A stretch of 61,102 bases of DNA from a virus. Taxonomy: Duplodnaviria; Caudoviricetes. The DNA lies in the IMG/VR virus record IMGVR_UViG_3300046171_000055, positions 1-61,102 of that record; one strand, written 5' to 3'. How positions within the stretch are numbered: the first letter of the stretch is position 1; each line of letters starts with the position of its first letter. The notes below the pieces were generated by a model, which did not search any database, was not told the origin of the DNA, and saw only the letters and a list, made by a program, of their open reading frames with translations. The position numbers and the translations under genes were made by a program. This document shows, one piece after another, positions 6,863 to 55,685 of this stretch.

Positions 6863-7230
6863 TATGCTCGTCTAGTTCTTTTACGAACTGCACTTACCTT
6901 TCTACCACCTGCACCTTGCTTACCAACTCTAGCTTTTTCTCTTTGCTTAGAAGCTAATTTGCTTTTAGACATTTCGGACTTAGTAACCGGTGTCTTTGAA
7001 GACACTCTTTTAGATGGTCTACAGTATTCACTTCTGCCACCTGTACCACAAGGTTTGTTGGTTCTAGTATCTACCCATTTTTCCTTACCCCATCTTTTAA
7101 GGTTAGAACCTGCTTTGGATTTTTTAACCTTACCTTTTTTCTTTCTACACTTTGCAGTAGCCTGTGCTGCTCTAGCCGACCACTTGCCGTAGCTTCTCAT
7201 TACTTTTCTATAACACGCATCTTTTGGCAT
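6862..7230 (-). CDS. Basic protein, DUF5872-like
   Basis: LKRWGKEKWVD...KPCG...YCRPSKRVSSKTP motif. Confidence 0.6.
   Translation of the reverse strand: MPKDACYRKVMRSYGKWSARAAQATAKCRKKKGKVKKSKAGSNLKRWGKEKWVDTRTNKPCGTGGRSEYCRPSKRVSSKTPVTKSEMSKSKLASKQREKARVGKQGAGGRKVSAVRKRTRRA
6990..7005. repeat. 16-bp palindrome copy 1 (GTGTCTTTGAAGACAC)
   Basis: Exact match; inside CDS 6862..7230, read as VSSKT. Confidence 0.95.
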
Positions 7231-7355
7231 TATCTTCCTTGTCCTTTATATTTTTTCTTCCAACCCTTTTGATTCTTACTTGCGTTCTTTGAATGAACAC
7301 CGGGTCTTTTAGTGTTCTTTGTTTTACTATAAGATGACAGAGTAATCTTAGGCAT
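7230..7355 (-). CDS. Small basic protein (41 aa)
   Basis: Hand-translated MPKITLSSYSKTKNTKRPGVHSKNASKNQKGWKKKYKGQGR; overlaps both neighbours. Confidence 0.65.
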   Translation of the reverse strand: MPKITLSSYSKTKNTKRPGVHSKNASKNQKGWKKKYKGQGR

Positions 7356-7682: not shown

Positions 7683-8093
7683 ATGCTTGATTACTTGAAA
7701 TATTGGCGAGTAGTCAGATACTTTGTCAAAAGAAAGTATGGTCTATCCCAAGCCGAACTAGAGATGCTTCTGTTTCTCAGAAGCGAAAAATATTTTTCAA
7801 AAGATGACTTTGATGAGTTTGATGAACTGCTTAGTTGGGATAAGAATAGATTTGAAAAACTAAGACAGGAAGGTTGGATTGAAGTCTTTAGAAAAAAGAA
7901 AGGTCATCGTAGAGTTGTGTATGCTTTAACATATAAATCACAACGAGTTCTTACATCTGTATATAAAAAATTAGAGGGAGAGGAAATACCTGAAAGTAAA
8001 TCTTCTAACCCTCTATTCTTAGCTGATGTATCCTATAACGATAAAGTATATAGGAACTATATTAAAAAACTAAACAAGTCTATTCGACAATAA
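7683..8093 (+). CDS. Winged-helix (MarR-like) DNA-binding protein
   Basis: KYGLSQAELEMLLFL...FEKLRQEGWIEV...RRVVYALT pattern of MarR-type wHTH. Confidence 0.65.
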   Translation: MLDYLKYWRVVRYFVKRKYGLSQAELEMLLFLRSEKYFSKDDFDEFDELLSWDKNRFEKLRQEGWIEVFRKKKGHRRVVYALTYKSQRVLTSVYKKLEGEEIPESKSSNPLFLADVSYNDKVYRNYIKKLNKSIRQ

Positions 8094-10658: not shown

Positions 10659-10732
10659 GCACCTATAGCTTAATTGGATAAAGCAACTGCCTTCTAAGCA
10701 GTAGAGTCTAGGTTCGAGTCCTAGTAGGTGTA
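10659..10732 (+). tRNA. tRNA-Arg (anticodon TCT)
   Basis: Cloverleaf: acceptor GCACCTA/TAGGTGT, D arm GCTT/AAGC, anticodon arm ACTGC-CTTCTAA-GCAGT, T arm CTAGG-TTCGAGT-CCTAG; CCA not encoded. Confidence 0.95.
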
Positions 10733-11039: not shown

Positions 11040-11106
11040 GGTTCCCCCCCGGTCCACGCTGACGGAGCCTCCACCGAAACCGATTTTTTTTCGAGGGGTG
11101 GGGTGC
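11040..11106. other. GC-rich island at the divergence of the two arms; candidate physical genome terminus
   Basis: C7 run (11044-11050) and GGGGTGGGG (11095-11103) in an AT-rich genome, within the largest non-coding gap. Confidence 0.4.
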
Positions 11107-11279
11107 AAGTTCCAAATCTGCAATCAGACTTTTTTAGCTTTTTCTAGCAGTACTTGTTGTCTACCTGTTGACACTGCAACAGGTAGTCACTGCATCCTCT
11201 GTAGACTCTACGATTATCCTAGTAAAGTCTACGATATAAAGAGCATTACCTCTCTGTTACTCTCTTATACAAGCAAAGA

Positions 11280-11295
11280 GTGTCTTTGAAGACAC
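11280..11295. repeat. 16-bp palindrome copy 2 (TG centre)
   Basis: Exact match, intergenic, upstream of the first early gene. Confidence 0.95.
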
Positions 11296-11543
11296 AAAGA
11301 GACTTTGCTCAACCTCTGTGCGAAAGTTTAGGACCATAAACAATAGTCAGTAATTAAACGAGAAAAAGAAAATTGCTTGAGGTAGTGAAAGAAAGATTAA
11401 ACATTTAGACAAAATATAGTCGAGAATTAGAAAGAATATTGTATATTGCAATCGATAAGGGAAGTTAAAAACAAGAGAAAACGACCCTAATGTGCTGAAA
11501 GTCAGCATTTTAACTTAAATTAAATAACTAAACAGACAAAATT

Positions 11544-12188
11544 ATGAGTCAATTATTAGAAATCGAAAGTGCATTCCTTAGTTCATCAGAGGTAAAAGAT
11601 GCATTAAAGCTAAACGAAGTGAAACGAGTTCAGCGAAGTATTAACAATGCCCACAAGACAAAATTTAACCATACGATGAAGTTGGCAAACCTCATCAACG
11701 ATGCAGTTAAATGGTTCGATAGTGAAGAAGGCAAAGAGAAATTAAGAGAGGAAGGTATCGAATGGTCAAAAGAGGAATTTGGAAAAAAGACATTTGGCTA
11801 TCAGAAGTCTTTCTTTTACAAACTAATTAAGTCTGCTAACCTAGACCCAAGAATACTTGAAGCATTCAACACTAAATGCGATGAGATAGGAACAGATGCT
11901 AACAGAAGTATAGCCGGTCTTCTAGAGTTCTCTAGAACAATAGATTTAGATTCTCTAGAGCATTCAGAAGATGCTACAGAAGAAGAAATTGCTCAAGCAG
12001 AGCAAGAGGTTATCGAGTCTACTGAAGTAGAGCAAGAGAGAACAAATTATTTATTTGTTATGACCTACAAAAATCCTCAAGGCAACAATCTATCTGTTAG
12101 AGTTGATGATGCTGGAAACGTATCTGGAAACAATTTAGAAGAAATAGCAAACGCAATTCAATTCTTACAAAATTCAATCAATAATTAA
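11544..12188 (+). CDS. First early protein, putative HTH DNA-binding protein
   Basis: WSKEEFGKKTFGYQKSFFYKLIK resembles ParB/DUF3102-type HTH segments; acidic linker; function inferred. Confidence 0.5.
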   Translation: MSQLLEIESAFLSSSEVKDALKLNEVKRVQRSINNAHKTKFNHTMKLANLINDAVKWFDSEEGKEKLREEGIEWSKEEFGKKTFGYQKSFFYKLIKSANLDPRILEAFNTKCDEIGTDANRSIAGLLEFSRTIDLDSLEHSEDATEEEIAQAEQEVIESTEVEQERTNYLFVMTYKNPQGNNLSVRVDDAGNVSGNNLEEIANAIQFLQNSINN

Positions 12189-12191
12189 TCA

Positions 12192-12207
12192 GTGTCTTCA
12201 AAGACAC
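12192..12207. repeat. 16-bp palindrome copy 3 (CA centre)
   Basis: Exact match 3 nt after the stop of 11544..12188. Confidence 0.95.
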
Positions 12208-12224
12208 ACAAAACCACAGAAAAA

Positions 12225-13178
12225 ATGAGTACAGAAATTCAATACGATAATTCAAATGATGCCGGTAGAAACCGAGTTCAGTCTTATCACAGAAGTCCTA
12301 GTCCGAGAGACCTCTCTAAAGGTGCAAAGTCTTCCGATATTAAAAATCTGAAGTCTGCATCCAAGAGAAACCTAATCGAGTTAGGCGATGGCAATACCGA
12401 GTCTAAATTTACTATCGGTATGGAAGTAGAAAAGCAACGACTCTCTAGAGGTGCAGTTAAAGAATATCCTTTGTTTGCCGGATTCGAGAGAGATTCCTCT
12501 TGTGGCTATGAAGCCATTACTAATATCATTCCTTTGTTACCTAGTGGACAATGGAGAAACAAAGTTTTCAATATGATGTTCCAAGCTAGGAAAATTATAG
12601 AAGACCAATACTCTCCTAGTTCTACTAGATGTGGTGGTCACATTACACTAGCAGTTCAAGGAATGACCGGTGCTGAAGTTATGAAAGCTATCAGAAAAAA
12701 TTGTGGGATTGTTTACTCTCTATTTTACAAGAGGTTGAACAATGGTTACTGCAATGGTAATATGACAATGTTAGATAAGAGTACTTTAGCATCTGATGAG
12801 GTTATGAGATACCAAAGAAGATACGATGTGTGTCTTGACAAGGGTAACACTATCGAGTTTAGGTTAGTTAGTAGATTCCAATCTGTAAAGCAGATGATGA
12901 GAAGATACGAATTGTTCTATGAGTTACTTGATTTCTCAATTAACAATCCTAATGGAAGTCACAATACATTCCTTAAGAAAATTACTCCAATCGTTAAGTC
13001 TATGTACAATGGAGATATGGACAAAGTGAATGAGAAGTTAACCTTAGCTAAATCATTTAGAACAATGATTCTTAAGAATAAAGTTAACCGAGATGTGATA
13101 AACTATGTTGACCCAATGCGAAGACTAGATGCAAGTAAATGGTACGACAGAGACCTTAATCGAAATGGTTACAATTAA
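12225..13178 (+). CDS. Putative amidoligase (Amidoligase_2 / COOH-NH2 ligase family)
   Basis: FTIGMEVE, ERDSS..YEAIT, CGGHITL, TIEFR motifs; ATG at 12225 preferred over the GTG inside the palindrome. Confidence 0.8.
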   Translation: MSTEIQYDNSNDAGRNRVQSYHRSPSPRDLSKGAKSSDIKNLKSASKRNLIELGDGNTESKFTIGMEVEKQRLSRGAVKEYPLFAGFERDSSCGYEAITNIIPLLPSGQWRNKVFNMMFQARKIIEDQYSPSSTRCGGHITLAVQGMTGAEVMKAIRKNCGIVYSLFYKRLNNGYCNGNMTMLDKSTLASDEVMRYQRRYDVCLDKGNTIEFRLVSRFQSVKQMMRRYELFYELLDFSINNPNGSHNTFLKKITPIVKSMYNGDMDKVNEKLTLAKSFRTMILKNKVNRDVINYVDPMRRLDASKWYDRDLNRNGYN

Positions 13179-13191
13179 AAATCAAAGGGTA

Positions 13192-13207
13192 GTGTCTTCA
13201 AAGACAC
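13192..13207. repeat. 16-bp palindrome copy 4 (CA centre), within an extended hairpin GGGTAGTGTCTT/AAGACACTATCC
   Basis: Exact match just after the amidoligase stop and immediately 5' of the hammerhead. Confidence 0.95.
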
Positions 13208-13212
13208 TATCC

Positions 13213-13263
13213 TCTGTCTATCGGTGTGTGCCGGTACTGATGAGTTCAAAAGAACGAAACAGA
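13213..13263 (+). ncRNA. Type III hammerhead ribozyme
   Basis: Stem III UCUGU/ACAGA; GUC cleavage triplet (cut after 13218); stem I UAUCGGU-GUGU-GCCGGUA; CUGAUGA core 13237-13243; stem II GUUC-AAAA-GAAC; GAAA 13256-13259. Confidence 0.92.
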
Positions 13264-13287
13264 AACATTAATTTAAATTCAATCAAG

Positions 13288-13524
13288 ATGAAAAATCAAA
13301 TCAGAAATTATGCAGAAACAATTCTGTATGTATCAGTAACACTAGGAGTCTTCTCAATGGTAGGTAGACTATTAATCCACATTATTTTTAACGATGCTAG
13401 AATGCTCATTCAGACATTCAGTGGAGCAGTATCAATGCTTGTAGTATTTGCATTCTTATTATTCTTAATGTATGCAACATTCACACTTATAGTAGCTGAC
13501 ATAAAAGAGAGACACAATGCATAG
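13288..13524 (+). CDS. Small membrane protein (2 TM)
   Basis: Start reassigned to MKNQIRNY at 13288, downstream of the ribozyme; two hydrophobic helices. Confidence 0.65.
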   Translation: MKNQIRNYAETILYVSVTLGVFSMVGRLLIHIIFNDARMLIQTFSGAVSMLVVFAFLLFLMYATFTLIVADIKERHNA

Positions 13525-13684
13525 AGAAAGAAAACACTACTACAAAGTTAGATATGCAGGTAAGCTAATTAAAGTCTTATCTGCTCATTCTAAATGGGAA
13601 GCAATCGACAGAATTTACAATGATAATATTGGTAGGTACAAGTGGATTGTCAGAGAAAAATTTACAGCAGTTAAATCTAAATAA
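13517..13684 (+). CDS. Small hypothetical protein (55 aa)
   Basis: Hand-translated MHRERKHYYKVRYAGKLIKVLSAHSKWEAIDRIYNDNIGRYKWIVREKFTAVKSK; fills the gap. Confidence 0.6.
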   Translation: MHRERKHYYKVRYAGKLIKVLSAHSKWEAIDRIYNDNIGRYKWIVREKFTAVKSK

Positions 13685-13694
13685 AATTAAAATT

Positions 13695-14048
13695 ATGTAT
13701 AAAGTAACATTACAATTCAATACTCATAAGATTACTTATGGGTCGAACAGAGGGCAGTGGGTCATAACTAAAGAGTTCAACGACCTAAGACACTGCAACA
13801 ATTTCATAGACTATATATGCAGAACAAAAGCATACTCACTTGATGAGATATGGTACGAGTCCGGTTATCCTTTCAAAGAGGGTGACAAATATTTCACCTT
13901 AGAGAAGAATCAAATCATTAGTTCTTGGTGGGATGATGTGTCAGAAGAATTGTTTGATAAGAATACCATCTACTTTGTGACACAAAAAGATGCAGAGAAT
14001 TATAGAGATAGTATGAAAGATGTAACAATCATAAATCTAAGACAATGA
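13695..14048 (+). CDS. Hypothetical protein
   Basis: ORF track 13620..14048; start MYKVTLQF after an A/T-rich leader. Confidence 0.65.
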   Translation: MYKVTLQFNTHKITYGSNRGQWVITKEFNDLRHCNNFIDYICRTKAYSLDEIWYESGYPFKEGDKYFTLEKNQIISSWWDDVSEELFDKNTIYFVTQKDAENYRDSMKDVTIINLRQ

Positions 14049-14563
14049 AAAAATTAATATTTATATCAGCATTATCTGTGGTTGGATATGTGAGTAGTTC
14101 TGTGTCTTCAAAGACACAAACTGCTCAGACAGAGGTAAGTCAACAGACAGACTCTGTTCTAGTGGTACGGGAGGAAGTAGTTCCTCCCAAGCCATTGGCG
14201 ATAGACACATTGCTAGTTGCAATTATGTATGTAGAATCTAGACTAGACTCAACGGCATATGCAAAGAATGAAAATGCCGTAGGAGTTTTACAGATAAGAC
14301 CAATAATGGTTCGTGAAGTTAATAGAGTTCTAAAAAAGATGGGCAAGGAAGATAGATATACATTGAAAGACAGATGGAGTTTAGTGAAGTCAGTCGAGAT
14401 GTTTAATGTCATACGAGACTATCACCATAAAGAATCAGACTATGAAACCATAGCAAGATGTTGGAATGGTGGAAGGAGAGGTGATAGAAAAAAATCTACA
14501 CTTGTGTATTGGGAACGAGTTCAAATACAAATAAATAATATCAATCAAATTTTAAATAAATAG
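14045..14563 (+). CDS. Secreted lysozyme-fold protein (transglycosylase/destabilase-like)
   Basis: Signal peptide; AIMYVES catalytic Glu, GVLQI, ARCWNGG motifs. Confidence 0.75.
   Translation: MKKLIFISALSVVGYVSSSVSSKTQTAQTEVSQQTDSVLVVREEVVPPKPLAIDTLLVAIMYVESRLDSTAYAKNENAVGVLQIRPIMVREVNRVLKKMGKEDRYTLKDRWSLVKSVEMFNVIRDYHHKESDYETIARCWNGGRRGDRKKSTLVYWERVQIQINNINQILNK
14102..14117. repeat. 16-bp palindrome copy 5 (CA centre)
   Basis: Exact match inside CDS, linker SVSSKTQ. Confidence 0.95.
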
Positions 14564-14565
14564 TT

Positions 14566-14865
14566 ATGACAAACAAAGAACAAATAATCAAAGAGTTAAG
14601 AAGAAGAATGCAGATAGCTAGAGACACTCAAGCTATAGGCAGAGAAAGATACCTAGCTACACTCATAGAGGGTGTGAAGAATGAATTCAAACCTGCGTAT
14701 GACGATGAGGGAAAAAAGTTTAGCACCTGCTTTGACAATATGGAATTAAGTGGAAGCTTTTCAATGCAGTTGAGTTGGTGGAATAATTTTGCAGACTATG
14801 TGCAAGAACATAGAAACACTTGCTACAACAATGCTTGTGAATACGCAGATGAAAAAGAAAGATAA
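14566..14865 (+). CDS. Hypothetical protein
   Basis: 99-aa ORF in operon. Confidence 0.65.
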   Translation: MTNKEQIIKELRRRMQIARDTQAIGRERYLATLIEGVKNEFKPAYDDEGKKFSTCFDNMELSGSFSMQLSWWNNFADYVQEHRNTCYNNACEYADEKER

Positions 14866-14872
14866 GATTAGA

Positions 14873-14904
14873 CTTGCGTATGTCTAAATTTAGTCTTATA
14901 TTTG
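14873..14904 (+). promoter_or_regulatory. Bacteroidota-type promoter (TTG...TATATTTG)
   Basis: TATATTTG at 14897-14904 with TTG about 20 nt upstream. Confidence 0.65.
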
Positions 14905-14930
14905 TCCAATCAATTATTAATCAGAGGTCT

Positions 14931-14946
14931 GTGTCTTCAAAGACAC
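14931..14946. repeat. 16-bp palindrome copy 6 (CA centre)
   Basis: Exact match in the 5' leader between promoter and ATG 14968; flanked by GAGG/CCTC. Confidence 0.95.
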
Positions 14947-14967
14947 TCCTCACAAATCAAATCAAAT

Positions 14968-16038
14968 ATGTGCGTAATTATTATTAAGCAGAAAAACAAT
15001 CAGATGTCAGAGGAAATAGCCAAGACCTCTGCAAGAATTAATCCTCACGGATTAGGAATTATTTGGCTAGATACTTTTGAAGTCGAGTATTATAAATCAA
15101 AAGACTATCGCAAGTTAATTACTAACCGACCTTTCATTGCTCACTTTAGATATGCAACTAAGGGTGCAGTCAACAAAGCAAACACTCATCCATTTGTATG
15201 TGGTAAAAACACAGATGAATTGCTTATGCACAATGGTACAATCAAAGGGTTAGGAGATGCTAAGATGTGCGACAGTAAAGTTCTAGCTAATAACTTAGGG
15301 TCAATGAATCGTATGCATTGGAAAAAACATTTAGAGCAGTATGACTCTCGATTTGTTTCAATCAATCTTCGTACTCGTTCATTTCAAATCTACAACAGAA
15401 ACCTATACACTTATCGAGATGGTATTTGGTATTCCAAAGCCAATGTATTACAAGACAATCTTATTGCAGTGTATGGTACACTAAAGAAAGGGTTTGGTAA
15501 CTACTACTCATACCTAACTAATGCAAAGCATTTAGGTAGAGGTAAGACTCAAGACAAATATCCTTTGTTGGTTGAGGGTTTACCATACTTGGTAGAAAAG
15601 AAAGATGTGGGTCACAATGTGGTGGTTGATGTGTTTAAGGTTAGTGATATGCAACTAAAGAATATTGACCAACTTGAAGGACATCCACGTTGGTACAAGC
15701 GAAAGCAAATACCAATTAAACTAAAGAATCGTACTCTAAATTGTTGGGTGTATTTCAATTCAAAAGACATCACAAACAAAGAGTATCACGAATCTTTTGA
15801 AAGAACCTACAGACAAGAACCACTCTTCACTTTTGAAGATGTTCAGCCAACTTATGATACCACTGAGTATCACGAGGCAATAGATATTGGTTGGTCTGAC
15901 ACAGACTTTCCAACTGAAACCACTCCAACTTGTGTCGATTGTTTCAGTGACTTGGAACACGATGCATTTCACAACTACTACTGCTCATCTTGTGGTGGTT
16001 GGTTCAAGGAAGATGAAGTATTAAAATTTAACGACTAA
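14968..16038 (+). CDS. Class II glutamine amidotransferase fused to gamma-glutamylcyclotransferase (AIG2-like) with C-terminal Zn ribbon
   Basis: N-terminal MCVII (Ntn Cys), NPHGLG, AHFRYATKG, NTHPF, MHNG; then AVYGTLKKG...LEGHPRWY; CVDC...CSSC. Confidence 0.88.
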   Translation: MCVIIIKQKNNQMSEEIAKTSARINPHGLGIIWLDTFEVEYYKSKDYRKLITNRPFIAHFRYATKGAVNKANTHPFVCGKNTDELLMHNGTIKGLGDAKMCDSKVLANNLGSMNRMHWKKHLEQYDSRFVSINLRTRSFQIYNRNLYTYRDGIWYSKANVLQDNLIAVYGTLKKGFGNYYSYLTNAKHLGRGKTQDKYPLLVEGLPYLVEKKDVGHNVVVDVFKVSDMQLKNIDQLEGHPRWYKRKQIPIKLKNRTLNCWVYFNSKDITNKEYHESFERTYRQEPLFTFEDVQPTYDTTEYHEAIDIGWSDTDFPTETTPTCVDCFSDLEHDAFHNYYCSSCGGWFKEDEVLKFND

Positions 16039-17204: not shown

Positions 17205-17490
17205 GACAGAAGAGTTAATCAAAGAGGTAGGCAGAGAGGTAGTTATGCTATTGCTTGAAAAGAATAAAGCATATGGCGACACTGCAAACAAGCCACCGAA
17301 AATCTTCAGTAAACTTTCAGCGAAGGAAGGAATACTTGCAAGGATAGATGACAAGTTAAGCAGGATAAAAACTGTGGGTATCAATGACAAAACAGAAGAC
17401 ACCCTGCTTGACTTGATTGGCTATCTAATTCTGTACAGAGTACAGTGTAGGAAAGAAGAAGTGTCTTCAAAGACACAAGAAAAAAGTTAG
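17197..17490 (+). CDS. DUF1599 / nucleotide-modification-associated all-alpha domain protein
   Basis: EKNKAYGD...ARIDDKLSRI...EDTLLDLIGY. Confidence 0.75.
   Translation: MAKTEELIKEVGREVVMLLLEKNKAYGDTANKPPKIFSKLSAKEGILARIDDKLSRIKTVGINDKTEDTLLDLIGYLILYRVQCRKEEVSSKTQEKS
17461..17476. repeat. 16-bp palindrome copy 7 (CA centre)
   Basis: Exact match in the C-terminal tail of 17197..17490 (VSSKT). Confidence 0.95.
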
Positions 17491-18476: not shown

Positions 18477-19074
18477 GAAGCTATCTTCAGTCAACGTAAA
18501 TAAATATGTTGAGAAGAAAAATGGTCTAACGTATTTGTCTTGGGCATTTGCGTGGGCAGAAACTAAGAAGCATTGTCCTGATGCTAAGTATGAAATCCTT
18601 GAAACAACTTATGATGATGCGATAGGTTTTATGTGTAACACACAAGTAACAATCGAAGGCGAAACCTTAGGTATGTGGTTACCCGTAATGGACACCAAGA
18701 ATCAATCAATGAAGAAGCATAAGTATTCTTACACAACTAGGTACGGAGAGAAAGAGGTAGCAGGAGCAACTACATTTGACATCAACAAAACTATGATGAG
18801 ATGTTTAGTTAAGAATCTAGCTATGTTTGGGTTGGGTATTTATATATATGCAGGAGAGGATATGCCAATGGAAGAAGAAAAGGTTGTGTCTTCAAAGACA
18901 CCAACGGCTAGTGGCAAACCAAAACTTGAAGTAGGAGATGAGAAGTGGGAGGCAATGGCTAACTTTTGTGTAGCTAATAAATCACTTGGTTACAAAAAGC
19001 TATGTGATAAGATTGGTACTAAGTATACATTGAGTGCAGGGGTTAAGAACGAAATCAAAAACTTAATCAAATGA
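18436..19074 (+). CDS. Sak/Rad52-like ssDNA annealing protein (DUF1071-like)
   Basis: EKKNGLTYLSWAFAW...MWLPVMD...INKTMMRCLVKNLAMFGLGIYIYAGED. Confidence 0.88.
   Translation: MATKSTTKKLTTFEKLSSVNVNKYVEKKNGLTYLSWAFAWAETKKHCPDAKYEILETTYDDAIGFMCNTQVTIEGETLGMWLPVMDTKNQSMKKHKYSYTTRYGEKEVAGATTFDINKTMMRCLVKNLAMFGLGIYIYAGEDMPMEEEKVVSSKTPTASGKPKLEVGDEKWEAMANFCVANKSLGYKKLCDKIGTKYTLSAGVKNEIKNLIK
18886..18901. repeat. 16-bp palindrome copy 8 (CA centre)
   Basis: Exact match in an interdomain linker (VVSSKTP). Confidence 0.95.
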
Positions 19075-19920: not shown

Positions 19921-20192
19921 TGGCAGAAGAAAAAATTTTTGCAGATGGTTTCTCTTTTAAGAGAAACGACAATGCTCCCGAATTTGTAGTAGGGAAGCAG
20001 TCCATCAAGGTGGATGAAGCTATTGCGTTCTTAAAAAAGAATGCAAAGAACGGATGGGTAAACCTAGATATTAAACAAGCAAAAGGAGGCAACTACTATT
20101 GTGAGTTAGATACTTGGGTAGCTAAACCAAAAGCAGAACCTGCAGCAGCAGTCGCAGCAGACACTGCAAGTGGGGAAGACCTACCTTTCTAG
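19920..20192 (+). CDS. Single-stranded DNA-binding protein (putative)
   Basis: Follows the SSAP/exonuclease pair; acidic C-terminal EDLPF tail. Confidence 0.7.
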   Translation: MAEEKIFADGFSFKRNDNAPEFVVGKQSIKVDEAIAFLKKNAKNGWVNLDIKQAKGGNYYCELDTWVAKPKAEPAAAVAADTASGEDLPF

Positions 20193-20207
20193 TGTCTTTA
20201 AAGACAC
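20192..20207. repeat. 16-bp palindrome copy 9 (TA centre, perfect palindrome)
   Basis: AGTGTCTTTAAAGACACT overlapping the SSB stop codon. Confidence 0.95.
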
Positions 20208-23066: not shown

Positions 23067-24508
23067 CCGAAAGAGTTGCAGGTTACTCAGACGAAATGAT
23101 GTATCGTCAATGCAAACTTCTACACGATATAGTTTTTAAAACCAAACTTGTAAAGCAAGGCAGGGGGAAAAACGCAGTGATGGTAGAAAAAAGAATGTAT
23201 GAGATAGATGGTGTGGTAGAACATAGAGCAAAGATTAGTCTTGAATATTATAAAAATAGAATGGCAACACCAAGTAAAATTAAATTCAGAGAATATCAAA
23301 AGAAAATTATTGTACAAGGAGCAGAGCATTTAATTAAAAATGGATTTGTTTATTTAGCTATGGAGGTTAGAACAGGCAAGACATTGACAAGTCTAGGTAT
23401 GTGCCGTTTGATGAGAGACAAAAAAGTTCTATTCGTTACAAAGAAAAAAGCAATCAGCAGCATAGAATCTGATTATGATTTATTAAATGCAGATTTCAGT
23501 ATAACAATAATTAATTATGAATCTCTACATAAAATAACAGACAGGGATTTTAATACAATTATTTTAGATGAAGCACACAGTATGGGTGCGTTTCCTAAAC
23601 CAAGTAAAAGAGCCAAGCAAGTAAAAGAAATACTTACTGCTCATAACCCAAAGGTTATATTGTTATCAGGAACTCCAACACCTGAATCATACAGTCAAAT
23701 GTTTCATCAGGTTTATGGCATCAAGAACAATCCTTTCAAAGACTATGTAAACTTTTATAAATTCTCAAAGCGATATGTAAATGTCAAACAAAGAAAGATA
23801 AATGGTTTGTATATAAATGATTATCACAATGGACTACAATCTATACTTGATGAAATGAAACCACACACCATTGCTTACTCACAAAAGGAGGCAGGTTTTA
23901 AAGTAGACACAAGGGAGCACACGCTTGAGGTTGAACTTGAACCAATAAGCTATAAGCTTACGGCTCAGTTAAAGAAAACTTTAGTGGTTGAAGGAAAGGA
24001 TGAGGTCATACTTGGTGATACACCGGTGAAGTTAATGATGAAGCTGCATCAGTTATACTCCGGAACAATAAAGTTTGAATCAGGTAACTCAACTGTATTA
24101 GATTATAGTAAAGCAAAGTTTATTAAAGAAAAATTCAAGGGTAAGAAGATTGGAATCTTCTATAAGTTCAAAGAAGAATTAAATGCTCTGAAAGAAATCT
24201 TTGGAGATAATTTAACAACAGAACTTAGTGTCTTTGAAGACACAAGTAAGTCTATAGCTTTACAAATTGTATCAGGTCGTGAGGGTATCTCCTTACGAAA
24301 AGCAGATGCTCTTGTATATTATAATATAGATTTTTCTGCTACGTCATATTGGCAGAGCAGAGACAGAATGACAACTAAAGATAGACTAGAGTCAGACGTT
24401 TATTGGGTTTTCTCTAAAGGAGGAATTGAAAAAGATATTTACAAAGCAGTCTCCAAGAAGAAGGACTATACTGTGAATCATTTTAAAAAGGATTTGCTAT
24501 CTTTGTGA
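23021..24508 (+). CDS. SF2 (SNF2-like) helicase
   Basis: FREYQ, MEVRTGKT, INYESL, ILDEAH, LSGTP, GREGISL, QSRDR; true start uncertain. Confidence 0.88.
   Translation: MCIVTKIYEGRPEGVTERVAGYSDEMMYRQCKLLHDIVFKTKLVKQGRGKNAVMVEKRMYEIDGVVEHRAKISLEYYKNRMATPSKIKFREYQKKIIVQGAEHLIKNGFVYLAMEVRTGKTLTSLGMCRLMRDKKVLFVTKKKAISSIESDYDLLNADFSITIINYESLHKITDRDFNTIILDEAHSMGAFPKPSKRAKQVKEILTAHNPKVILLSGTPTPESYSQMFHQVYGIKNNPFKDYVNFYKFSKRYVNVKQRKINGLYINDYHNGLQSILDEMKPHTIAYSQKEAGFKVDTREHTLEVELEPISYKLTAQLKKTLVVEGKDEVILGDTPVKLMMKLHQLYSGTIKFESGNSTVLDYSKAKFIKEKFKGKKIGIFYKFKEELNALKEIFGDNLTTELSVFEDTSKSIALQIVSGREGISLRKADALVYYNIDFSATSYWQSRDRMTTKDRLESDVYWVFSKGGIEKDIYKAVSKKKDYTVNHFKKDLLSL
24228..24243. repeat. 16-bp palindrome copy 10 (TG centre)
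   Basis: Exact match inside the helicase (SVFEDT frame). Confidence 0.95.
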
Positions 24509-29700: not shown

Positions 29701-32700
29701 GATGTCAGCTATTTCTCTTCTTACATTTGGATTGGCTCTAATACCAAGTACTCTATCAAACGCATTCTCTAGTTCAAGTTGAGTTTGTTCAGGTTGTACT
29801 TTATATATAGGGTTTTCTCTAAGCAAGTCTAATGCTTTCTGTCTTATCTCGGCAAATGATTTAGTCCTTACACCTGTTTTACCTTTACCACCTCTAGGTC
29901 CTTGAATAGCAAAAGCATTTACTGCATCTCTAGTTTCAGTAAATAATCTTTGACCTACAATGGCACCACCTTCAACATTACCAAACTCTCTTGGCATAGG
30001 TTTTAATAAATCAAGTTGAACTGTTAGTGCATTAGTTATATCCTTTGGTTTGAATCCTCTGTTTTTTAGTACCACTCTAATAGATTCATCACTAAATCCT
30101 TCTCTTCTTCCTTGTTCTACAATACTATCAATAGACAAGCCTGTGCTAAAAGCAGCATCAGGGTTCTTTAGCATCTTCATTTGCTTGTCGGTCATCTTAA
30201 TTTCTTGACCTGCAAAAATATCAGCAAGTGCTACACCTAAGAATTTGTCAAGTGACAAGTCTTGAATTTCCTCTGCACTAAGGTCGGCTGACCTAGTTGA
30301 AAAGTTGTTCTTGATATAATTCCACATACCAAGAAGCCACTCTTGAAACTTAGCTTTCAATGATGCGTTAGCTATGGTCTCACCTTTGTTACCAATAAGT
30401 ATAGCCATTGCTTCGTTAGTAGCTTTCTCTACATCCCCGTCAAATCTTTTTAGTTGTTCTTTAAAGGTGTCAGTTTCCTGCACTAATTCTGCACCTTTTT
30501 CATATACCTTTCTACCTTGTTCAGTAGTTTTTAAGTAGTCGGTCCAAACGTGACCCATCTCGTGAATTGCAGTATTGAACAACTGTGATTCAGAGTTATG
30601 AACCTCAGGGTTAATATAAATATCCCCGTCTACAGTAACACCATAAACAACCTCATCACCTTTTAGATATACTCTTACATTATCTGATGCTAGTATATTA
30701 TTAAATGTGTCTGTATCAGAATTAATTACTACACCCGGAAATGCAATATTCATAAATGAGTTTAGTTTATCTACATTGCTTGGACTTTCATTAGATATAA
30801 TACCTACATAATCAAATGAAGGTATACCAATACCAAAACCTAATTGTTGTGCTCTTAATGTGTTTATTTGACTCGGTTTGCTTTCCGGTGTAATTGTTTC
30901 TTCTTTCTCAATAAGCTTGGCAAATACTTTTTGATAAGCTTTTGGATATACCGTTTCCATTCTTTGTGGATTTTCAAGTATACCAATTGACCTTCCTCTC
31001 ACACCATACTTATAATTAGGGTGTGTTGTTTCTACTATACCGGGATTCAATACATCTACACCAACAACAGAAACAACATTACCACCGGGTACATCCCTTA
31101 GTTGTGGGTCAGTAACTACATCTGTAATCATACTAATGTTTATTAGATTGGTATTAGGTAGTCCTTTTAATAGTGTAGTTGGAACTGCCTTAGTTGTAGG
31201 TGTAACTTTTTGATTAGTTCTTTTAGACTTTTGTAAAGGCTTGTTAGCTTTACTTGTTGTCATCAGCTTTACTAAATGACTACGCACAGGAAGTGGTAGT
31301 TTTTGAATTACATCATTAGCTAATAGTTGGTCTACGCTAGTTGGATTTAATTCTTCTATTGTTTCTAATAATTGTTTGTACTCACCCAAGTCTTTTGGTG
31401 GTTTTGCTTTAGTTTCTAGGAAATCAATATTTTTTTGAATAGCTTCTTTTAATACAGGTACTGCAGCCTTTCTATTCTTTAATGGAATCTTCTGCATATT
31501 ATCTAACAAGACTCGTATTACTGCTTCATTAGAAACCATAGCTTGTTCTCCCATCTTCACAATGTTCATAGGAACAAGACCATTCATCTCAGGATTCTTT
31601 GCCCAAAACTCATCAAATAAATTTTTATTATTTTGATATACTTGGTCTGCTTTATTTACAATAGACTGTGCTTCTTTCTCCGTGACGTTTGCCCAAGCTG
31701 CTTGTTCATTACCAACAGTTCCATTAAAACCAATGGCACCTTTTAGGTTATCTATAGTTGTATTGGTTTGTGGATTAACAACTGTACCTGTAGTAAGTTG
31801 GTCTGTAATACTAAATATAGTAGGAAGACCTTTTATTACTTCAAGCTTAGTAACTTTTAAATTATTATCTGTTCTTGTGTTAAGTTCTTCAACATCAATC
31901 TTAGATGTTCCTTCTTGGCTTTCTACAGTGGTATCTACGTTTGGAGATTCTATTTCATTAATCTCTGTAGTAATTTCAATCTCATCAGGACCAATATTAT
32001 CTGTGTTGTTTTCGTTGGTTGTTTCTAATTTAAAATCTACTTTAGGTTTTGTTCCTGATTCTTTTTCTTGAAGAGATTGTTCTAGGTCAGTTACTTCCTG
32101 TACTGCTGCATCATTATTGGTAACTGCTTCTTCAGTTTCGAGTGTCTTCAAAGACACTCCATCTTCTGCAGTTTGTTCTTGTATTTGAGTAGGAGTTTCT
32201 ACTGAAGGTGTTGTAGTTTCTGTTGTAGGTGTAGTGGTTTCAGTAACCTCACCTTGTTCTACTGTTACATTTCCATCAGATGCTGCTTGTGCAACTGCTT
32301 GTGCAGGTGCAACTTTAGCTTCAACTAATTTGTTTGCTACCATTTGAGAAACCTCATCATCATTTTCAATGGATGCATTTAGTCTACCTATATTTTTCGG
32401 GTCTAAACCATTTATATATTTTACAAACTCATCTTTGCTTACCTCTGTAAACTGACCAAGCTTTCCTCTAAATCCTTTTCTTATTTTGTAGGTAGGTTTT
32501 CCTGCTCTCAAATCTGTTCCTGTAGCTTGTTCTTGAACAGATAGCACACCTGTACCTGCTAACAGTGTTTGTTGCTCAGGTGTTCTTAATTCTTTTGTGG
32601 TCAGTATTTCTGACAACTCTGTATTTATTTCTTTAATCTTTGGTCCAAAAACTTCTTTTCTATTTTGTGAAGATGACAATTCGTTTTTAGCAGAAAGGAG

Positions 32701-48315: not shown

Positions 48316-48352
48316 AAAAAAAAGGAGGAGTGTCTTCAAAGACACTCCCCCA
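48316..48352 (-). terminator. Intrinsic terminator after the capsid gene, with the palindrome as its stem
   Basis: Minus strand GGGGGAGTGTCTTTGAAGACACTCCTCC followed by T8. Confidence 0.8.
48330..48345. repeat. 16-bp palindrome copy 12
   Basis: Exact match 18 nt past the MCP stop. Confidence 0.95.
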
Positions 48353-53460: not shown

Positions 53461-55685
53461 CTAATTATTTCACTATATTTGCCCTTGTTACTATACCTTG
53501 CAAAGTTAACTTTTATTTTTGAAAGTTTTTGTTCAGGTAAATAAAGGTGTTTTTGTGTAGCCATTATAGCTAAACCCGAACTTATAGAAGCATCAAACTT
53601 AGTTCTGTTACTAATATCAAACTTTGCCCAATCTTCTAAAGTTCTTGTAAACACCATATCTCCCATCTCCATATTGTCCTTCATTCCTATATGATTTTCA
53701 ATATAAGATTCAATAGCAGAAGCGTGTGCTTGTTTAACATCTTCACTTGAATTAGGTATACCACCTAACTCTTTTTCAGTCTTAGAAAGTTTAGTATAAA
53801 TCTTATCAGGTCTATTCATACAAAAACCTCTATATCCTCTGTTTTTAAAATGGTATAATAATCTAGGTTTGTTATTCTCTATTAATATTGGCATACCATA
53901 AAACACACAAGCCATAAGAACATCTTCAAAAAATAACTCAGCAGTTTGTGGTCTTGCTATATACTCTAAAAAAAATTCATTACTTGGTGCTTCATCCATA
54001 TTAAATTTTGTCTTTCCGTGTAATGCACCATTAGAACCTCCACCTCCAACTACACCTGATATATCATAACTGTCACATCCGAATGCACCTATATGCTCAT
54101 TACCCGGATGTTTGATTCCTCTTTTAATAGTTATTTTATTTTGCAATTGTTTGGCAGGTGTCCAAGACACTAAAAACCTTCCTCTATTATTTGGAGAAAA
54201 AATTACTTCACTATCTTTTATTCCATTCTTCCAACTTAATGAACCTCTTGTAACGTGATGGTCCATAATAATAGAATCATTATAATCTATTTGTTGATAT
54301 ATTCTAGTTAGATTAAATAATGACTGTTTACTTTCATCTCTAAATGCGTGTGATTCAGTTCTTGGAAACTGTCGGTAAAATTCATTTAATGCATCAGCAT
54401 CATTCTTTAAAGACTCAACTTCATTTTTCCAATAGTTTACTGCACCTTGATAAATTATTTCATTATCAATACCTATCATTTCTTTTTCAGGATTTTCTAA
54501 AACCGGCATACCATATCTATCAATAAACCCTTCCATATTCCATTCCATAGGAATAAACAAACTATATAATCCACTTTTAGTTTGACCGTTTGCATTTCGT
54601 TTTGTTACATCTGAATCAGTATATAAATTTTTAAAATTACCACCACCTTTTTCTAATGCATTAGATGTGGAACCCATCATACATTTACCTATAATTTTAC
54701 TACCAAGTCTTAAACAAGTTTTAGTTACTCTCCAATTGTTTAAGATATTATTTGGCTTAATCCATTTACCACTCTCATCGTGTACTAACAATAAAAGTTT
54801 TTCCCCGTCATAAGAGTTGTCATCTGTGTTCTTCCAATCAATCGTAGTATCTAATCCATACAACTCATCATCAGTTGTATCATACATATTTTTTTTAGTA
54901 ATCTTGGCAGCCGGAATCCTAAAAGCTAATTCTGTTTTAGGTTTATCCATACCATCCATAATAGGTTTGAAAAAGAATGGCAATCTACTATTGATTGGAA
55001 CAACCTTATCAGTAAACATTTTTTTAGCATCTGAACCTGTTTTGGATAGTATGCCAACTCTAGAATCTTTAGCTAAAGTTCCTGTGTTTACGCACTCAGA
55101 AGATGACATAAAAGAAAAACCTGAACGTCTTATCTTTAGATAAATCATTCCAAAACTTCTTGTGTCAGCTTTACAAGCTTCCCAATATAAAAACAGTATT
55201 CTGTTTGCTTCTCTAAAATCAGGATATCCAATGTCAATACTTGTCCATTGTAGATACATATAGTGTGCTCCTGTTATATAAGTAGGAATACCGTTGGACA
55301 TAAACCATAACCCTTGTTCCCTTCTATCAAACTCTTCTTCAATATAATCTACCCACCTGTTCTTAAATTCAGAAGTCATTTCATTCCATTGAAATATAGA
55401 TTGAATTTTTGATAACGCTTTAGGTAACTCCTCACGTTCCCAATATTGTTCTTCTTTTTTTGAGTGTCTTTGAAGACACTTTTTAGGCTCAAGTGGTAAG
55501 GCAATTCTTAATCCACTAATATTAATTATATTACCTATCTGACCGTTCTTAGATATTACAACAAAGTTATACTTTGAATCATAGCCGTATTTCCACGTTT
55601 TAGCCTTGTTTTTAGACGTTAAAACATTTTTTGGTACTACACCTTCAATTACCGTATATAAGTTATTTAGACCTTCGTTCTGCAA
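53457..55685 (-). CDS. terL: Terminase large subunit
   Basis: LKIRRSGFS Walker A, LLVHDESGK Walker B, GSTSN, GCDSYD nuclease motif, IENN. Confidence 0.9.
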   Translation of the reverse strand: MQNEGLNNLYTVIEGVVPKNVLTSKNKAKTWKYGYDSKYNFVVISKNGQIGNIINISGLRIALPLEPKKCLQRHSKKEEQYWEREELPKALSKIQSIFQWNEMTSEFKNRWVDYIEEEFDRREQGLWFMSNGIPTYITGAHYMYLQWTSIDIGYPDFREANRILFLYWEACKADTRSFGMIYLKIRRSGFSFMSSSECVNTGTLAKDSRVGILSKTGSDAKKMFTDKVVPINSRLPFFFKPIMDGMDKPKTELAFRIPAAKITKKNMYDTTDDELYGLDTTIDWKNTDDNSYDGEKLLLLVHDESGKWIKPNNILNNWRVTKTCLRLGSKIIGKCMMGSTSNALEKGGGNFKNLYTDSDVTKRNANGQTKSGLYSLFIPMEWNMEGFIDRYGMPVLENPEKEMIGIDNEIIYQGAVNYWKNEVESLKNDADALNEFYRQFPRTESHAFRDESKQSLFNLTRIYQQIDYNDSIIMDHHVTRGSLSWKNGIKDSEVIFSPNNRGRFLVSWTPAKQLQNKITIKRGIKHPGNEHIGAFGCDSYDISGVVGGGGSNGALHGKTKFNMDEAPSNEFFLEYIARPQTAELFFEDVLMACVFYGMPILIENNKPRLLYHFKNRGYRGFCMNRPDKIYTKLSKTEKELGGIPNSSEDVKQAHASAIESYIENHIGMKDNMEMGDMVFTRTLEDWAKFDISNRTKFDASISSGLAIMATQKHLYLPEQKLSKIKVNFARYSNKGKYSEIIR
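55464..55479. repeat. 16-bp palindrome copy 13 (TG centre)
   Basis: Exact match in the terL N-terminal region (CLQRH frame). Confidence 0.95.

What the first reader, a model, noticed from the sequence alone, without database searches (positions are those of the whole stretch)
6990..55479. Thirteen copies of a 16-bp palindrome GTGTCTT-YR-AAGACAC dispersed through the genome
Seen: copies start at 6990, 11280, 12192, 13192, 14102, 14931, 17461, 18886, 20192, 24228, 32142, 48330 and 55464. All 14 arm positions are invariant; only the central 2 nt vary (CA, TG or TA). Seven copies are inside genes, in four different reading frames (VSSKT, CLQRH, VSLKT, VFEDT), mostly in linkers or tails, and both orientations occur. 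Selection is therefore on the nucleic acid rather than the peptide. A rough chance expectation at ~1/3 GC is far below one copy. Inference: these are binding sites for a dimeric protein. Length and symmetry recall parS, Noc or matS sites and phage operators/stoperators, but the sequence matches none I know, and no integrase or classical repressor switch is visible. Candidate undescribed phage DNA-organising, protection or transcription-control system.
Basis: partly seen in the sequence, partly recalled or inferred. Interest (0 to 1): 0.92.

Follow-up and report, generated by a model that had tools for sequence, protein, structure and literature searches.

The report
Dispersed operator palindrome of marine phage
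A marine phage carries thirteen identical copies of a 16-letter mirror-image DNA word that most likely serve as docking sites for the phage's own first early protein, and many copies double as the tips of RNA hairpins that punctuate its early message.

Summary
There are 13 exact copies and none with 1-2 mismatches, against 0 expected. The window is a whole 61-kb phage genome. An independent seawater DNA run keeps the sites.

The word is a family trait. The nearest relative has 14 copies of a variant changed symmetrically at positions 6 and 11. All 12 related records searched first (11 of them at least 99% complete) carry 8-17 copies, and a later batch reaches 21.

Presence tracks one orphan early gene, 11544-12188 (P0001):
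- 19 of 20 near-complete relatives with the gene have 2-21 sites.
- 7 of 8 without it have none.
- The two kinds are interleaved on a primase tree.
- P0001 is predicted to form a symmetric homodimer (0.70 against 0.00). Its best fold matches, KorB/ParB DNA-binding domains, are weak.

The constraints on the word are two-fold symmetric, and the two half-sites vary independently.

Intergenic copies also form the tips of covarying RNA hairpins. These sit just after stop codons, next to type III hammerheads and in a terminator.

Best reading (about 0.5): DNA operators of a dimeric early regulator, lodged where hairpins or protein linkers tolerate them. An RNA-level function is the main rival (about 0.27). 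Earlier AI notes of this scan describe a similar pairing in another phage; I did not check them.

The parts
6990..7005 (.). Palindrome copy 1. The centre reads TG on + and CA on the sense (-) strand. It lies inside ORF 6862-7230 (-), which matches DUF5872.
11280..11295 (.). Palindrome copy 2, in the 470-nt non-coding gap between the divergent arms, 248 nt before the P0001 start. The nearest relative has a copy in the same gap, about 106 nt before its homologue's start.
11544..12188 (+). P0001, the first gene of the early arm (214 aa) and an orphan family. It is the candidate reader of the palindrome. Layout: helical N-domain, acidic linker, small beta C-domain. Predicted symmetric homodimer.
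12192..12207 (.). Palindrome copy 3, intergenic: 3 nt after the P0001 stop and 17 nt before the next ATG.
13192..13207 (.). Palindrome copy 4, 13 nt after the stop of 12225-13178. It is the tip of the hairpin AGGGUA..UAUCCU, and the hammerhead match begins 3 nt after the palindrome.
13211..13266 (+). Type III hammerhead ribozyme: GUC site, CUGAUGAG, stem II and CGAAAC are all present.
   Evidence: Rfam Hammerhead_3 38.6 bits, below its gathering score of 48.5, E 8e-5. My own model R1 scores 77.4 bits, but this sequence was one of the 12 it was built from.
14102..14117 (.). Palindrome copy 5, inside ORF 14045-14563 (weak SLT match, just at the cut-off). It lies just after the hydrophobic N-terminal stretch and encodes VSSKT.
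14897..14904 (+). TATATTTG, a Bacteroidota-type -7 promoter box (consensus recalled, not from a call). It is conserved upstream of the GATase/GGACT gene in relatives and puts copy 6 in the 5' UTR, about 20-35 nt after the likely start site.
14931..14946 (.). Palindrome copy 6, the tip of a 5'-UTR hairpin (outer stem GAGG/CCUC, internal loop UCU/U), 21 nt before the ATG of 14968-16038.
17461..17476 (.). Palindrome copy 7, in the C-terminal tail of ORF 17197-17490 and 77 nt before the next ATG.
18886..18901 (.). Palindrome copy 8, in the hypervariable linker of the Sak-like annealing protein (18436-19074). The nearest relative has a copy at a similar place and in the same frame.
   Evidence: place and frame worked out from the coordinates
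20192..20207 (.). Palindrome copy 9 (centre TA). Its first base overlaps the stop codon of 19920-20192. A separate strong hairpin with a U-tract follows at about 20225-20257.
24228..24243 (.). Palindrome copy 10, inside the helicase gene 23021-24508 (encodes VFEDT). It arose by substitution relative to the nearest relative.
32142..32157 (.). Palindrome copy 11, inside the 2922-aa virion-module gene 26743-35511 (-), in a poorly conserved segment.
48316..48351 (-). Terminator-like hairpin after the major capsid gene (48364-49797): GGGGGA + palindrome copy 12 (48330-48345) + UCCUCC, followed by U8. Folding energy -21.5 kcal/mol, z -6.0.
55464..55479 (.). Palindrome copy 13, inside the terminase large subunit gene 53457-55685 (-), encoding CLQRH. 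The relatives have another sequence of the same length there.
12225..16038 (+). Early genes that co-occur with the palindromes: 12225-13178 (no family found) and 14968-16038 (class-II GATase + GGACT).

Best explanation
The 16-bp word GTGTCTT-YR-AAGACAC is the DNA operator of a phage-encoded dimeric protein, the product of the first early gene (P0001, 11544-12188).

Proposed mechanism (inferred, not shown):
- P0001 is made first and binds as a symmetric dimer. One subunit reads each half-site GTGTCYT across a flexible central CA/TG step.
- Nine of the 13 sites lie in the 15-kb early arm, mostly at gene boundaries. One sits about 20-35 nt downstream of a host-type promoter.
- Bound dimers would therefore block or tune host RNA polymerase at each early cistron. 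They would also regulate P0001 itself, since sites bracket its gene.

Why the sites sit where they do: a DNA palindrome is also an RNA hairpin once transcribed. The sites survive where a hairpin is already wanted or a peptide is tolerated. These places are the tips of intercistronic hairpins, including those just 5' of hammerhead ribozymes, a terminator stem, and protein linkers and tails.

Shown here: the motif family, its symmetry, its co-occurrence with P0001, the predicted dimer, and the RNA-hairpin context. Inferred: binding, and the regulatory effect.
For: 1. Sequence constraints
- There are 13 exact copies and no degenerate ones.
- All 14 copies in the nearest relative carry the same symmetric change at positions 6 and 11.

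2. Two-fold symmetry without a pairing constraint
- Position 6 is T or C and position 11 is A or G.
- In 16 polymorphic loci the two half-sites assort independently: 38 hybrid sites seen against 33.1 expected, of 114.
- Of 80 site clusters the centre is CA in 48, TG in 19, TA in 11 and CG in 2. The two commonest forms are reverse complements of each other.

3. Co-occurrence with P0001, in 28 related records at least 93% complete
- P0001 is present in 20; 19 of these have 2-21 sites.
- P0001 is absent in 8; 7 of these have 0 sites.
- The reversed-pattern control gave 0 everywhere.
- On a primase tree the label needs 6 changes, at least 2 of them forced by well-supported branches.

4. P0001 itself
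- The homodimer score is 0.70 (median of three runs) against a best control of 0.00.
- The runs agree in at least 95% of contacts, and the partner pLDDT is at least 83.
- This mark was reached by 20 of 30 proteins solved as pairs of one chain and by 1 of 23 solved as single chains; my own alignment was used, so these counts hold only roughly.

5. Placement
- Sites bracket the P0001 gene in the window. A site also lies upstream of its homologue in the nearest relative.
- The TerL and helicase copies arose in place by substitution: no indel in TerL, one 1-residue gap beside the helicase site.

6. Fold
- KorB and Spo0J/ParB DNA-binding domains recur among the best weak matches.
- Scores: 1r71 Z 5.4-5.5; 1vz0 Z 5.0-5.4; 8qa8 Z 4.8-5.0; 6s6h Z 4.5.
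Against: - No binding data exist.
- The fold matches are in the noise range for helical proteins, and Foldseek finds nothing.
- No Pfam family matches any of the 17 family members scanned.
- The centre is biased towards CA on the + strand of the loci, which is the strand of most early genes: 48 against 19 site clusters. A symmetric duplex reader does not predict this. A TGA stop in one frame of the TG form accounts for part of the bias in coding copies.
- Hybrid half-site types are skewed within genomes. In G029 all 9 hybrids are of one type.
- The co-occurrence could partly reflect swapping of a whole early module that carries both P0001 and many of the sites.
- P0002 and P0003 co-occur with the motif about as well in the flank-limited test.
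- One P0001-positive record has no site, and one P0001-negative record has two.
- I found no simple rule linking the putative recognition helix to the motif variant.
Confidence: 0.5

Rival explanations
1. The element works in the transcript. It is a standardised stem-loop, GUGUC(U)/(A)GACAC with a UYRA loop. It marks the 3' end of each early cistron, protects the upstream fragment after cleavage by the adjacent hammerhead, a tRNA-like element or a host RNase, and is read by an RNA-binding factor that might be P0001.
For: - Position: of 175 copies in 34 loci, 56 are intergenic. The preceding stop codon is most often -1 to 5 nt away and the next ATG 16-22 nt away.
- Covariation of the 5'-UTR hairpin before the GATase gene: 98.6% of cells pair, 8 of 10 pairs change on both sides, and 0 of 500 shuffles reach this.
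- In the outer stem, U-G is the commonest type at one pair (10 of 22 sequences), which fits only the sense strand.
- Relatives without the word have unrelated hairpins at the same spot.
- Hammerheads: all 37 hits are on the sense strand. 23 of 35 distinct upstream contexts have a GUGUC/GUCUC-arm hairpin ending right at stem III.
- About ten copies abut tRNA-like acceptor/T-arm minihelices.
- One copy is the tip of the capsid-gene terminator.
- The centre is biased towards CA on the + strand of the loci.
- Perreault et al. 2011 proposed that phage hammerheads cut long transcripts into gene-length pieces (PMC3088659, passages read).
Against: - These points show that a hairpin is wanted at those places. 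They do not show that this particular sequence is read as RNA.
- More than half of the copies lie inside genes, on either strand, including late genes.
- Positions 6 and 11 do not need to pair. C-A combinations are as common as independent assortment predicts.
- UCAA and UUGA loops have nothing in common as RNA, yet they are the two favoured forms.
- Low-depth contigs from RNA libraries run across copies 12192, 14931 and 18886. This is weak, because DNA carry-over is possible.
Confidence: 0.27
2. It is a selfish or recombination-driven micro-repeat, like REP or PeSL elements. It spreads by copy-and-paste or gene conversion at cassette boundaries and has no dedicated reader.
For: - Copies sit at gene-cassette boundaries.
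- Variant types are skewed within genomes, for example all 9 hybrids of G029 are of one type.
- Another relative has its own repeated hairpin, GGGGAGC-N5-GCTCCCC, in 5 copies.
Against: - The window has no decayed copies.
- The TerL and helicase copies arose by substitution: no indel in TerL, one 1-residue gap beside the helicase site.
- No Y1 transposase, integrase or resolvase is present.
- The word is kept across relatives whose primase is only about 70% identical.
- The link with P0001 would be left unexplained.
Confidence: 0.07
3. It is a hairpin promoter for a phage RNA polymerase, as in the early promoters of phage N4.
For: - All copies are identical.
- Many lie 16-22 nt before start codons.
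- The virion module includes a 2922-aa protein.
Against: - No RNA polymerase was found. The giant protein has no PHROG match, and PF00940 gave no hit, although its control was not informative.
- Relatives without the word keep the giant protein.
- Many copies lie mid-gene or after the last gene of a block.
- A host-type -7 box lies upstream of copy 6.
Confidence: 0.03

Closest known systems
KorB and its OB operators on plasmid RK2 (ParB family); more broadly ParB-parS and Noc-NBS
   Same: - A short palindrome occurs in a dozen dispersed copies on one replicon and is read by a dimeric HTH protein encoded on the same replicon. The number and sequence of OB sites are recalled, not from a call.
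- KorB acts as a global repressor (PMC11790492, abstract seen in the listing).
- KorB and Spo0J DNA-binding domains are among the best weak fold matches of P0001.
   Different: - No ParB_N/CTPase domain and no ParA partner were found.
- P0001 has no detectable sequence family.
- This replicon is an apparently non-temperate phage.
- The sites concentrate at early-gene boundaries and double as RNA hairpin tips.
Stoperators of Cluster A mycobacteriophages
   Same: Many copies of one short site are spread over a phage genome. The phage's own repressor binds them and stops elongating polymerase (PMC9283540, abstract seen in the listing).
   Different: - Stoperators are asymmetric and are read by a monomeric repressor (title and abstract of PMC9283540).
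- Those phages are temperate. Here the site is palindromic and no integrase is present.
17-bp palindrome TGTTCGGNNNCCGAACA of Cluster O mycobacteriophages
   Same: - It has invariant 7-bp arms and a variable centre, with more than 30 copies per genome.
- Copies lie partly between genes and partly inside them.
- Its function is unknown (PMC4351075, passages read).
   Different: - The sequence, spacer length and host phylum differ.
- The passages I read name no candidate reader and no link to ribozymes.
Clustered hammerhead ribozymes that flank genes in phages and prophages
   Same: Self-cleaving type III hammerheads lie on the sense strand between early genes. Processing of long transcripts was proposed for them (PMC3088659, passages read).
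   Different: The palindrome is not part of the ribozyme core. It caps a separate hairpin that abuts stem III, and it also occurs far from any ribozyme.

Membership tests
ParB/KorB-type operator system | ParB_N (CTPase/Srx-like) domain in the binding protein | tested here: not met
   Pfam finds no family in any of the 17 P0001-family members scanned. PF02195 gives no hit anywhere in the genome, while 11 of 14 control genomes ring.
ParB/KorB-type operator system | HTH DNA-binding domain with the KorB/Spo0J fold | tested here: inconclusive
   VIA-align gives 1r71_A Z 5.4-5.5 (83-98 residues aligned), 1vz0_A Z 5.0-5.4, 8qa8_A Z 4.8-5.0 and 6s6h_B Z 4.5. The tool itself warns that Z under 8 is common for helical models. 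Foldseek gives no match at E <= 0.001.
ParB/KorB-type operator system | Multiple copies of a 13-16 bp palindromic site on the same replicon | tested here: met
   13 exact copies in the window; 8-21 per related genome.
ParB/KorB-type operator system | Dimeric binder | tested here: met
   This is a prediction only. Homodimer score 0.70 against a best control of 0.00. The mark was reached by 20 of 30 proteins solved as pairs of one chain and 1 of 23 solved as single chains.
ParB/KorB-type operator system | ParA-type ATPase partner (partition systems only) | tested here: not met
   PF13614 gives no hit in the genome, while 14 of 14 controls ring.
ParB/KorB-type operator system | The protein binds the site | not testable with these tools
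   Needs EMSA, DAP-seq or ChIP.
Mycobacteriophage stoperators | Asymmetric site read by a monomeric immunity repressor of a temperate phage | tested here: not met
   The site is palindromic. No integrase or resolvase is present. The candidate reader is predicted to be a dimer.
Type III hammerhead ribozyme (for the element next to copy 4) | Conserved core (CUGAUGA, GAAA, cleavage triplet) with stems I-III in type III order | tested here: met
   All core elements align to RF00008. The score of 38.6 bits is below the family's gathering score of 48.5 (E 8e-5). My own model finds 37 such elements in 87 sources; the window's element was among the 12 sequences the model was built from.
REP elements with RAYT transposase | Y1 (HUH) transposase partner, with copies that are extragenic and variably decayed | tested here: not met
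   PF01797 gives no hit, although only 6 of 14 controls ring. Seven of the 13 copies are inside genes and none is decayed.

The most novel reading that the evidence does not exclude
The word is dual-coded. On DNA it is the operator of a new, CTPase-less, KorB-like global regulator that a large clade of abundant marine Bacteroidota phages uses to time its early genes. On RNA the same 16 letters cap the hairpins that end each cistron, beside hammerhead or tRNA-like cleavage modules. One sequence would then couple transcriptional roadblocks to ribozyme-based message punctuation, and operator and protein would co-evolve into separate specificity groups (T, C or G at position 6; GTCTC arms).
Probability: 0.25. 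Interest if true: 0.8.

Novelty: new variant of a known kind. Interest (0 to 1): 0.62.

Why it matters
- The phage family is common: 402 relatives in IMG/VR, and 16 of 24 listed public runs hold at least half of the sampled words of this stretch. Almost nothing is known about how phages of marine Bacteroidota control their genes.
- This work yields a testable cis-trans pair: one orphan protein and one 16-bp site with natural specificity variants.
- It shows that a DNA operator can share its letters with RNA processing hairpins.
- If confirmed, the pair would give a compact, orthogonal set of repressor and operator parts.
- It would also offer an explanation for the unexplained dispersed palindromes of other phages.

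Tried and rejected
Leads that went nowhere or were rejected
- Artefact or adapter: rejected.
- Known RNA family at the palindromes: Rfam at E <= 1 found only the tRNA, the hammerhead and a chance plastid match on the tRNA.
Of the 80 rows shown, 78 had a single match, in unrelated taxa.
- Only two contigs held several copies: a 56-kb contig of a Cytophagales MAG, listed twice with 4 and 1 matches, and a 32-kb contig of a Flavobacteriaceae MAG with 2. Both are likely phage contigs.
- Megablast of the early arm against GenBank phages: no match.
- elemoF and Panino phages: no such palindrome family.
- Other candidate readers: the DnaA-type HTH protein 17684-18034 (Bac_DnaA_C 31.3 bits, cut-off 31.5), the VRR-NUC nuclease 24682-24921, 25218-25769 and 7683-8093 also occur in relatives without the motif.
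- P0001 in the PDB by sequence: nothing below E 0.3. P0002: nothing.
- P0001 homologues: 201 proteins, none with a Pfam domain among the 120 listed. The only names given are 'hypothetical protein' or bare gene coordinates.
- The Atlas look-alikes are DUF3102 clusters (score 0.92, 148 shared features, below the 170 the tool advises). HMMER does not confirm DUF3102 in any of the 17 members.
- RNA evidence: the RNA libraries X17-X19 gave only short low-depth contigs. No starts or ends can be read from contigs, so nothing follows for or against processing.
- A one-residue rule between the P0001 helix and the motif variant: not found.
- The flank-pairing test over all copies gave modest signals (intergenic p 3e-4, in-gene p 0.016). 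The contexts are not independent, so these p-values are inflated.
- Literature: a search for Elemovirus / vB_FspP_elemo / BAL314 found 5 papers, none about repeats by title. A search for conserved inverted repeats in phage genomes found 76 papers holding 4 of 6 terms; none of the 15 listed concerns this clade. I did not see supplements, which could hold repeat tables.

Rows dropped
- The 5'-UTR alignment A1 used 22 of 29 distinct upstream regions. Left out were 5 without any hairpin (L038, L062, L071, L076, L078) and 2 near-identical to rows kept (L007, L011). Two duplicates (L025, L072) and two unplaced starts (L050, L069) had been set aside earlier.
- The hammerhead model A2 used 12 of the 13 composite elements; L008 was dropped as the same as L007.


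Full report
**The observation.** The pattern GTGTCTTNNAAGACAC occurs 13 times, at the stated coordinates. Centres are CA (8), TG (4) and TA (1). None of 100 dinucleotide-preserving shuffles gave a match. Allowing up to two mismatches adds no further copy, so the family is all-or-none. The window is the whole record, a 61,102-bp virus genome rated 100% complete.

The stretch 11200-20500 is held by 20 of 24 listed public runs, and 16 of them hold at least half of its sampled words. An independent DNA run covers 11709-17378 in one contig, and none of the differences shown falls in a palindrome. The copies are therefore real.

**What the genome is.** Capsid and portal proteins place it with Flavobacterium 'elemo' podophages, Maribacter phage Panino and Cellulophaga phages. 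The nearest record is MW202828.1, at 67% (capsid) and 76% (portal) amino-acid identity. There are two gene arms:
- an early arm on the + strand, about 11.5-26.6 kb. It holds a Sak-like annealing protein, an exonuclease, a primase/helicase, a helicase and a GATase/GGACT enzyme;
- late and lysis genes on the - strand.

No tyrosine or serine recombinase was found.

**The word is a family trait.**
- MW202828.1 has 14 exact copies of GTGTCGTTAACGACAC, all in its early arm. It differs from the window's word only at the mirror positions 6 and 11.
- A primase query found 402 relatives in IMG/VR, and 80 loci were kept.
- Perfect palindromes of this shape in those loci number 166 with GTGTCTT arms, 19 with GTGTCCT, 4 with GTCTCTT and 2 others. 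34 loci have at least two copies and 46 have at most one.
- In whole records, 12 of the first 12 relatives searched have 8-17 matches to the relaxed pattern GTSTCNTNNANGASAC. In 44 further records, 23 have matches (up to 21). The reversed pattern gave 0 everywhere.
- elemoF and Panino have no such family.

**Where the copies sit.** In the window, nine of the 13 lie in the early arm.
- Six are outside ORFs: 11280, 12192, 13192, 14931, 20192 and 48330.
- Seven are inside ORFs, in linkers, tails or poorly conserved segments.

Across 34 loci, 56 of 175 copies are intergenic. Their commonest layout is a stop codon -1 to 5 nt before the word and the next ATG 16-22 nt after it.

**The RNA layer.** Upstream of the GATase/GGACT gene lies a conserved Bacteroidota-type -7 box (TATATTTG; the consensus is recalled, not from a call). 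A hairpin follows it, made of:
- a 4-bp outer stem;
- a UCU/U internal loop;
- an apical stem-loop, which is the 16-mer.

In 22 aligned relatives, 98.6% of cells pair, 8 of 10 pairs change on both sides, and none of 500 shuffles reaches this. The outer stem is not part of the word. It covaries (A-U 14 against G-C 6 at one pair), and another pair is most often U-G, which fits only the sense strand. Relatives without the word have unrelated apical hairpins at the same place, and five have no hairpin at all.

Copy 13192 sits 3 nt before a type III hammerhead (Rfam 38.6 bits, below the gathering score of 48.5). A model built from 12 such elements finds 37 in 87 sources, all on the sense strand. 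In 23 of 35 distinct upstream contexts, a GUGUC- or GUCUC-arm hairpin ends right at stem III; six others have a different GC-rich hairpin.

About ten copies in relatives abut tRNA-like acceptor/T-arm minihelices. Copy 48330 is the tip of the terminator-like hairpin after the capsid gene (-21.5 kcal/mol, z -6.0, followed by U8). Hairpins are clearly wanted at these places. This fits the proposal that phage hammerheads cut long transcripts (PMC3088659, passages read).

**The DNA layer.** The hairpin context does not explain why these 16 letters are kept, for four reasons.
- First, the constraints are mirror-symmetric without being pairing constraints. Position 6 is T or C and position 11 is A or G. 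In 16 polymorphic loci the two half-sites assort independently: 38 hybrids seen, 33.1 expected, of 114. Sense-strand C-A combinations are common.
- Second, the centre is CA or TG in 67 of 80 site clusters, TA in 11 and CG in 2. The two favoured forms are reverse complements, as expected for a property of the duplex and not of an RNA loop.
- Third, more than half of all copies are inside genes, on either strand. The copies in TerL and the helicase arose by substitution in place: no indel in TerL, one 1-residue gap beside the helicase site.
- Fourth, all copies within a genome change in concert.

**The candidate reader.** Among window genes shared with MW202828.1 but absent from elemoF and Panino, three track the motif in 33 loci with enough flank:

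| Gene | Loci with the motif | Loci without |
|---|---|---|
| P0003 | 18/18 | 3/15 |
| P0002 | 17/18 | 3/15 |
| P0001 | 14/18 | 2/15 |

The DnaA-type HTH protein, the VRR-NUC nuclease, Sak, the exonuclease and the helicase are present in all 33.

Whole records remove the flank limit. Of 28 records at least 93% complete, the P0001 profile hits 20. Of those, 19 have 2-21 sites and one has none. Of the 8 records without P0001, 7 have no site and one has two. On a primase tree the two kinds are interleaved: 6 changes by parsimony, at least 2 of them forced by well-supported branches. The link is therefore not one clade against another, although swapping of a whole early module could contribute.

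P0001 is the first early gene and is bracketed by sites. Its model (pLDDT 84; 89 for the N-domain alone) has a helical N-domain, an acidic linker and a small beta-rich C-domain. Two copies dock with a score of 0.70 against a best control of 0.00. That mark was reached by 20 of 30 proteins solved as pairs of one chain and by 1 of 23 solved as single chains.

KorB and Spo0J/ParB DNA-binding domains recur among the best fold matches (Z 4.5-5.5). That range is noise for helical models, and Foldseek finds nothing. No Pfam family, no ParB_N domain and no ParA were found. The family has 201 members; none of the 120 listed has a Pfam domain or an informative name.

**Synthesis.** The reading that covers both layers is this. 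The word is the operator of the P0001 dimer. It persists where a transcribed palindrome does no harm or is useful, namely on the tips of existing intercistronic hairpins, in a terminator, and in protein linkers.

The likely effect is control of host polymerase at early-gene boundaries, plus autoregulation. This resembles stoperators (PMC9283540, abstract) or KorB (PMC11790492, abstract) in outline, but I infer it only from position. I put this reading at about 0.5.

**What speaks against it.** There are no binding data and the fold evidence is weak. The centre is biased towards CA on the + strand of the loci, 48 against 19 clusters. This is only partly explained by the TGA that the TG form places in one reading frame. 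Hybrid types are skewed within genomes. P0002 and P0003 co-occur about as well in the flank-limited test.

A selfish micro-repeat is at about 0.07 and a hairpin promoter at about 0.03.

**Comparison and novelty.** The closest described observation is the 17-bp palindrome of Cluster O mycobacteriophages: 34 copies, invariant 7-bp arms, function unknown (PMC4351075, passages read). The closest mechanisms are the KorB operators and the stoperators. This system is a member of neither family: it has no ParB_N domain and no ParA, its site is not asymmetric, and the phage is not temperate.

My searches found no paper on such repeats in this phage group. Notes of this scan, which are AI notes and not independent evidence, report the same candidate on this window. 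They also report a similar 'operator palindrome plus KorB-like early protein, some copies on RNA hairpin tips' in an SP6-like phage, and hairpin-then-hammerhead cassettes elsewhere.

I rate the finding a new variant of a known kind, with interest 0.62.

Noticed in passing
window 13211-13266 (+); relatives L003-L084: Type III hammerheads are common in the early arms of this phage group: 37 hits in 87 sources, all on the sense strand. Nearly all have a hairpin ending 0-2 nt before the 5' strand of a very short stem III (3-4 bp). This suggests coaxial stacking and fast product release.
   Followed up: partly
for example L038:485-560, L052:5384-5460, L070:1378-1450, L073:3101-3175, L076:1718-1790: In relatives, tRNA-like minihelices follow the palindrome directly: a 6-7 bp acceptor-like stem enclosing a GGTTCGAnTCC T-arm, with no anticodon or D arm. 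ARAGORN does not call them, apart from one 'tRNA-???' in L073. They could be RNase P-type processing signals.
   Followed up: partly
window 20424-21617 and 21805-22836: The primase/helicase (phrog_28855, one 2445-bp gene in MW202828.1) is split into two ORFs in different frames here. A related strain in DNA run X3 has three 1-nt indels in this linker (21586, 21734, 21867). MW202828.1 has a palindrome copy in the same linker.
   Followed up: partly
window 12225-16038: An early enzyme module of 12225-13178 (no family found) and a class-II GATase + GGACT fusion that starts Met-Cys. It co-occurs with the palindromes as strongly as P0001 does in the flank-limited test (17/18 and 18/18 against 3/15).
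   Followed up: partly
L016:711-2610: A relative without the GTGTC word and without P0001 has its own repeated hairpin, GGGGAGC-N5-GCTCCCC, five times within 2 kb of its early arm. The hairpin before L020's hammerhead is of this kind.
   Followed up: no
G037 (L093-L095): One relative keeps the GTGTCTT/AAGACAC arms but lets the central two letters vary freely (AT, AC, GC, CT). This is unlike the Y-R rule elsewhere.
   Followed up: no
window 2-592 and 59844-61100 (-): Repeats such as GGACCACAAGGACC and GGACCTTCGGGACC (4-10 copies) look like collagen-type Gly-X-Y coding repeats. They lie in a gene that runs across the record's ends, so the record is cut inside a gene.
   Followed up: no
L110/L139 (WTJX01000555.1) and L162 (JBMZDR010000022.1): A 56-kb contig in a Cytophagales MAG holds at least five copies of the exact word, and a 32-kb contig in a Flavobacteriaceae MAG holds two. 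They are probably phage contigs binned with their hosts, which gives a weak hint about the host.
   Followed up: no
window 10659-10732 (+) and 11040-11110: A tRNA-Arg(TCT) and a GC-rich island (C7, GGGGTGGGG) lie in the divergent non-coding region that also holds palindrome copy 2.
   Followed up: no
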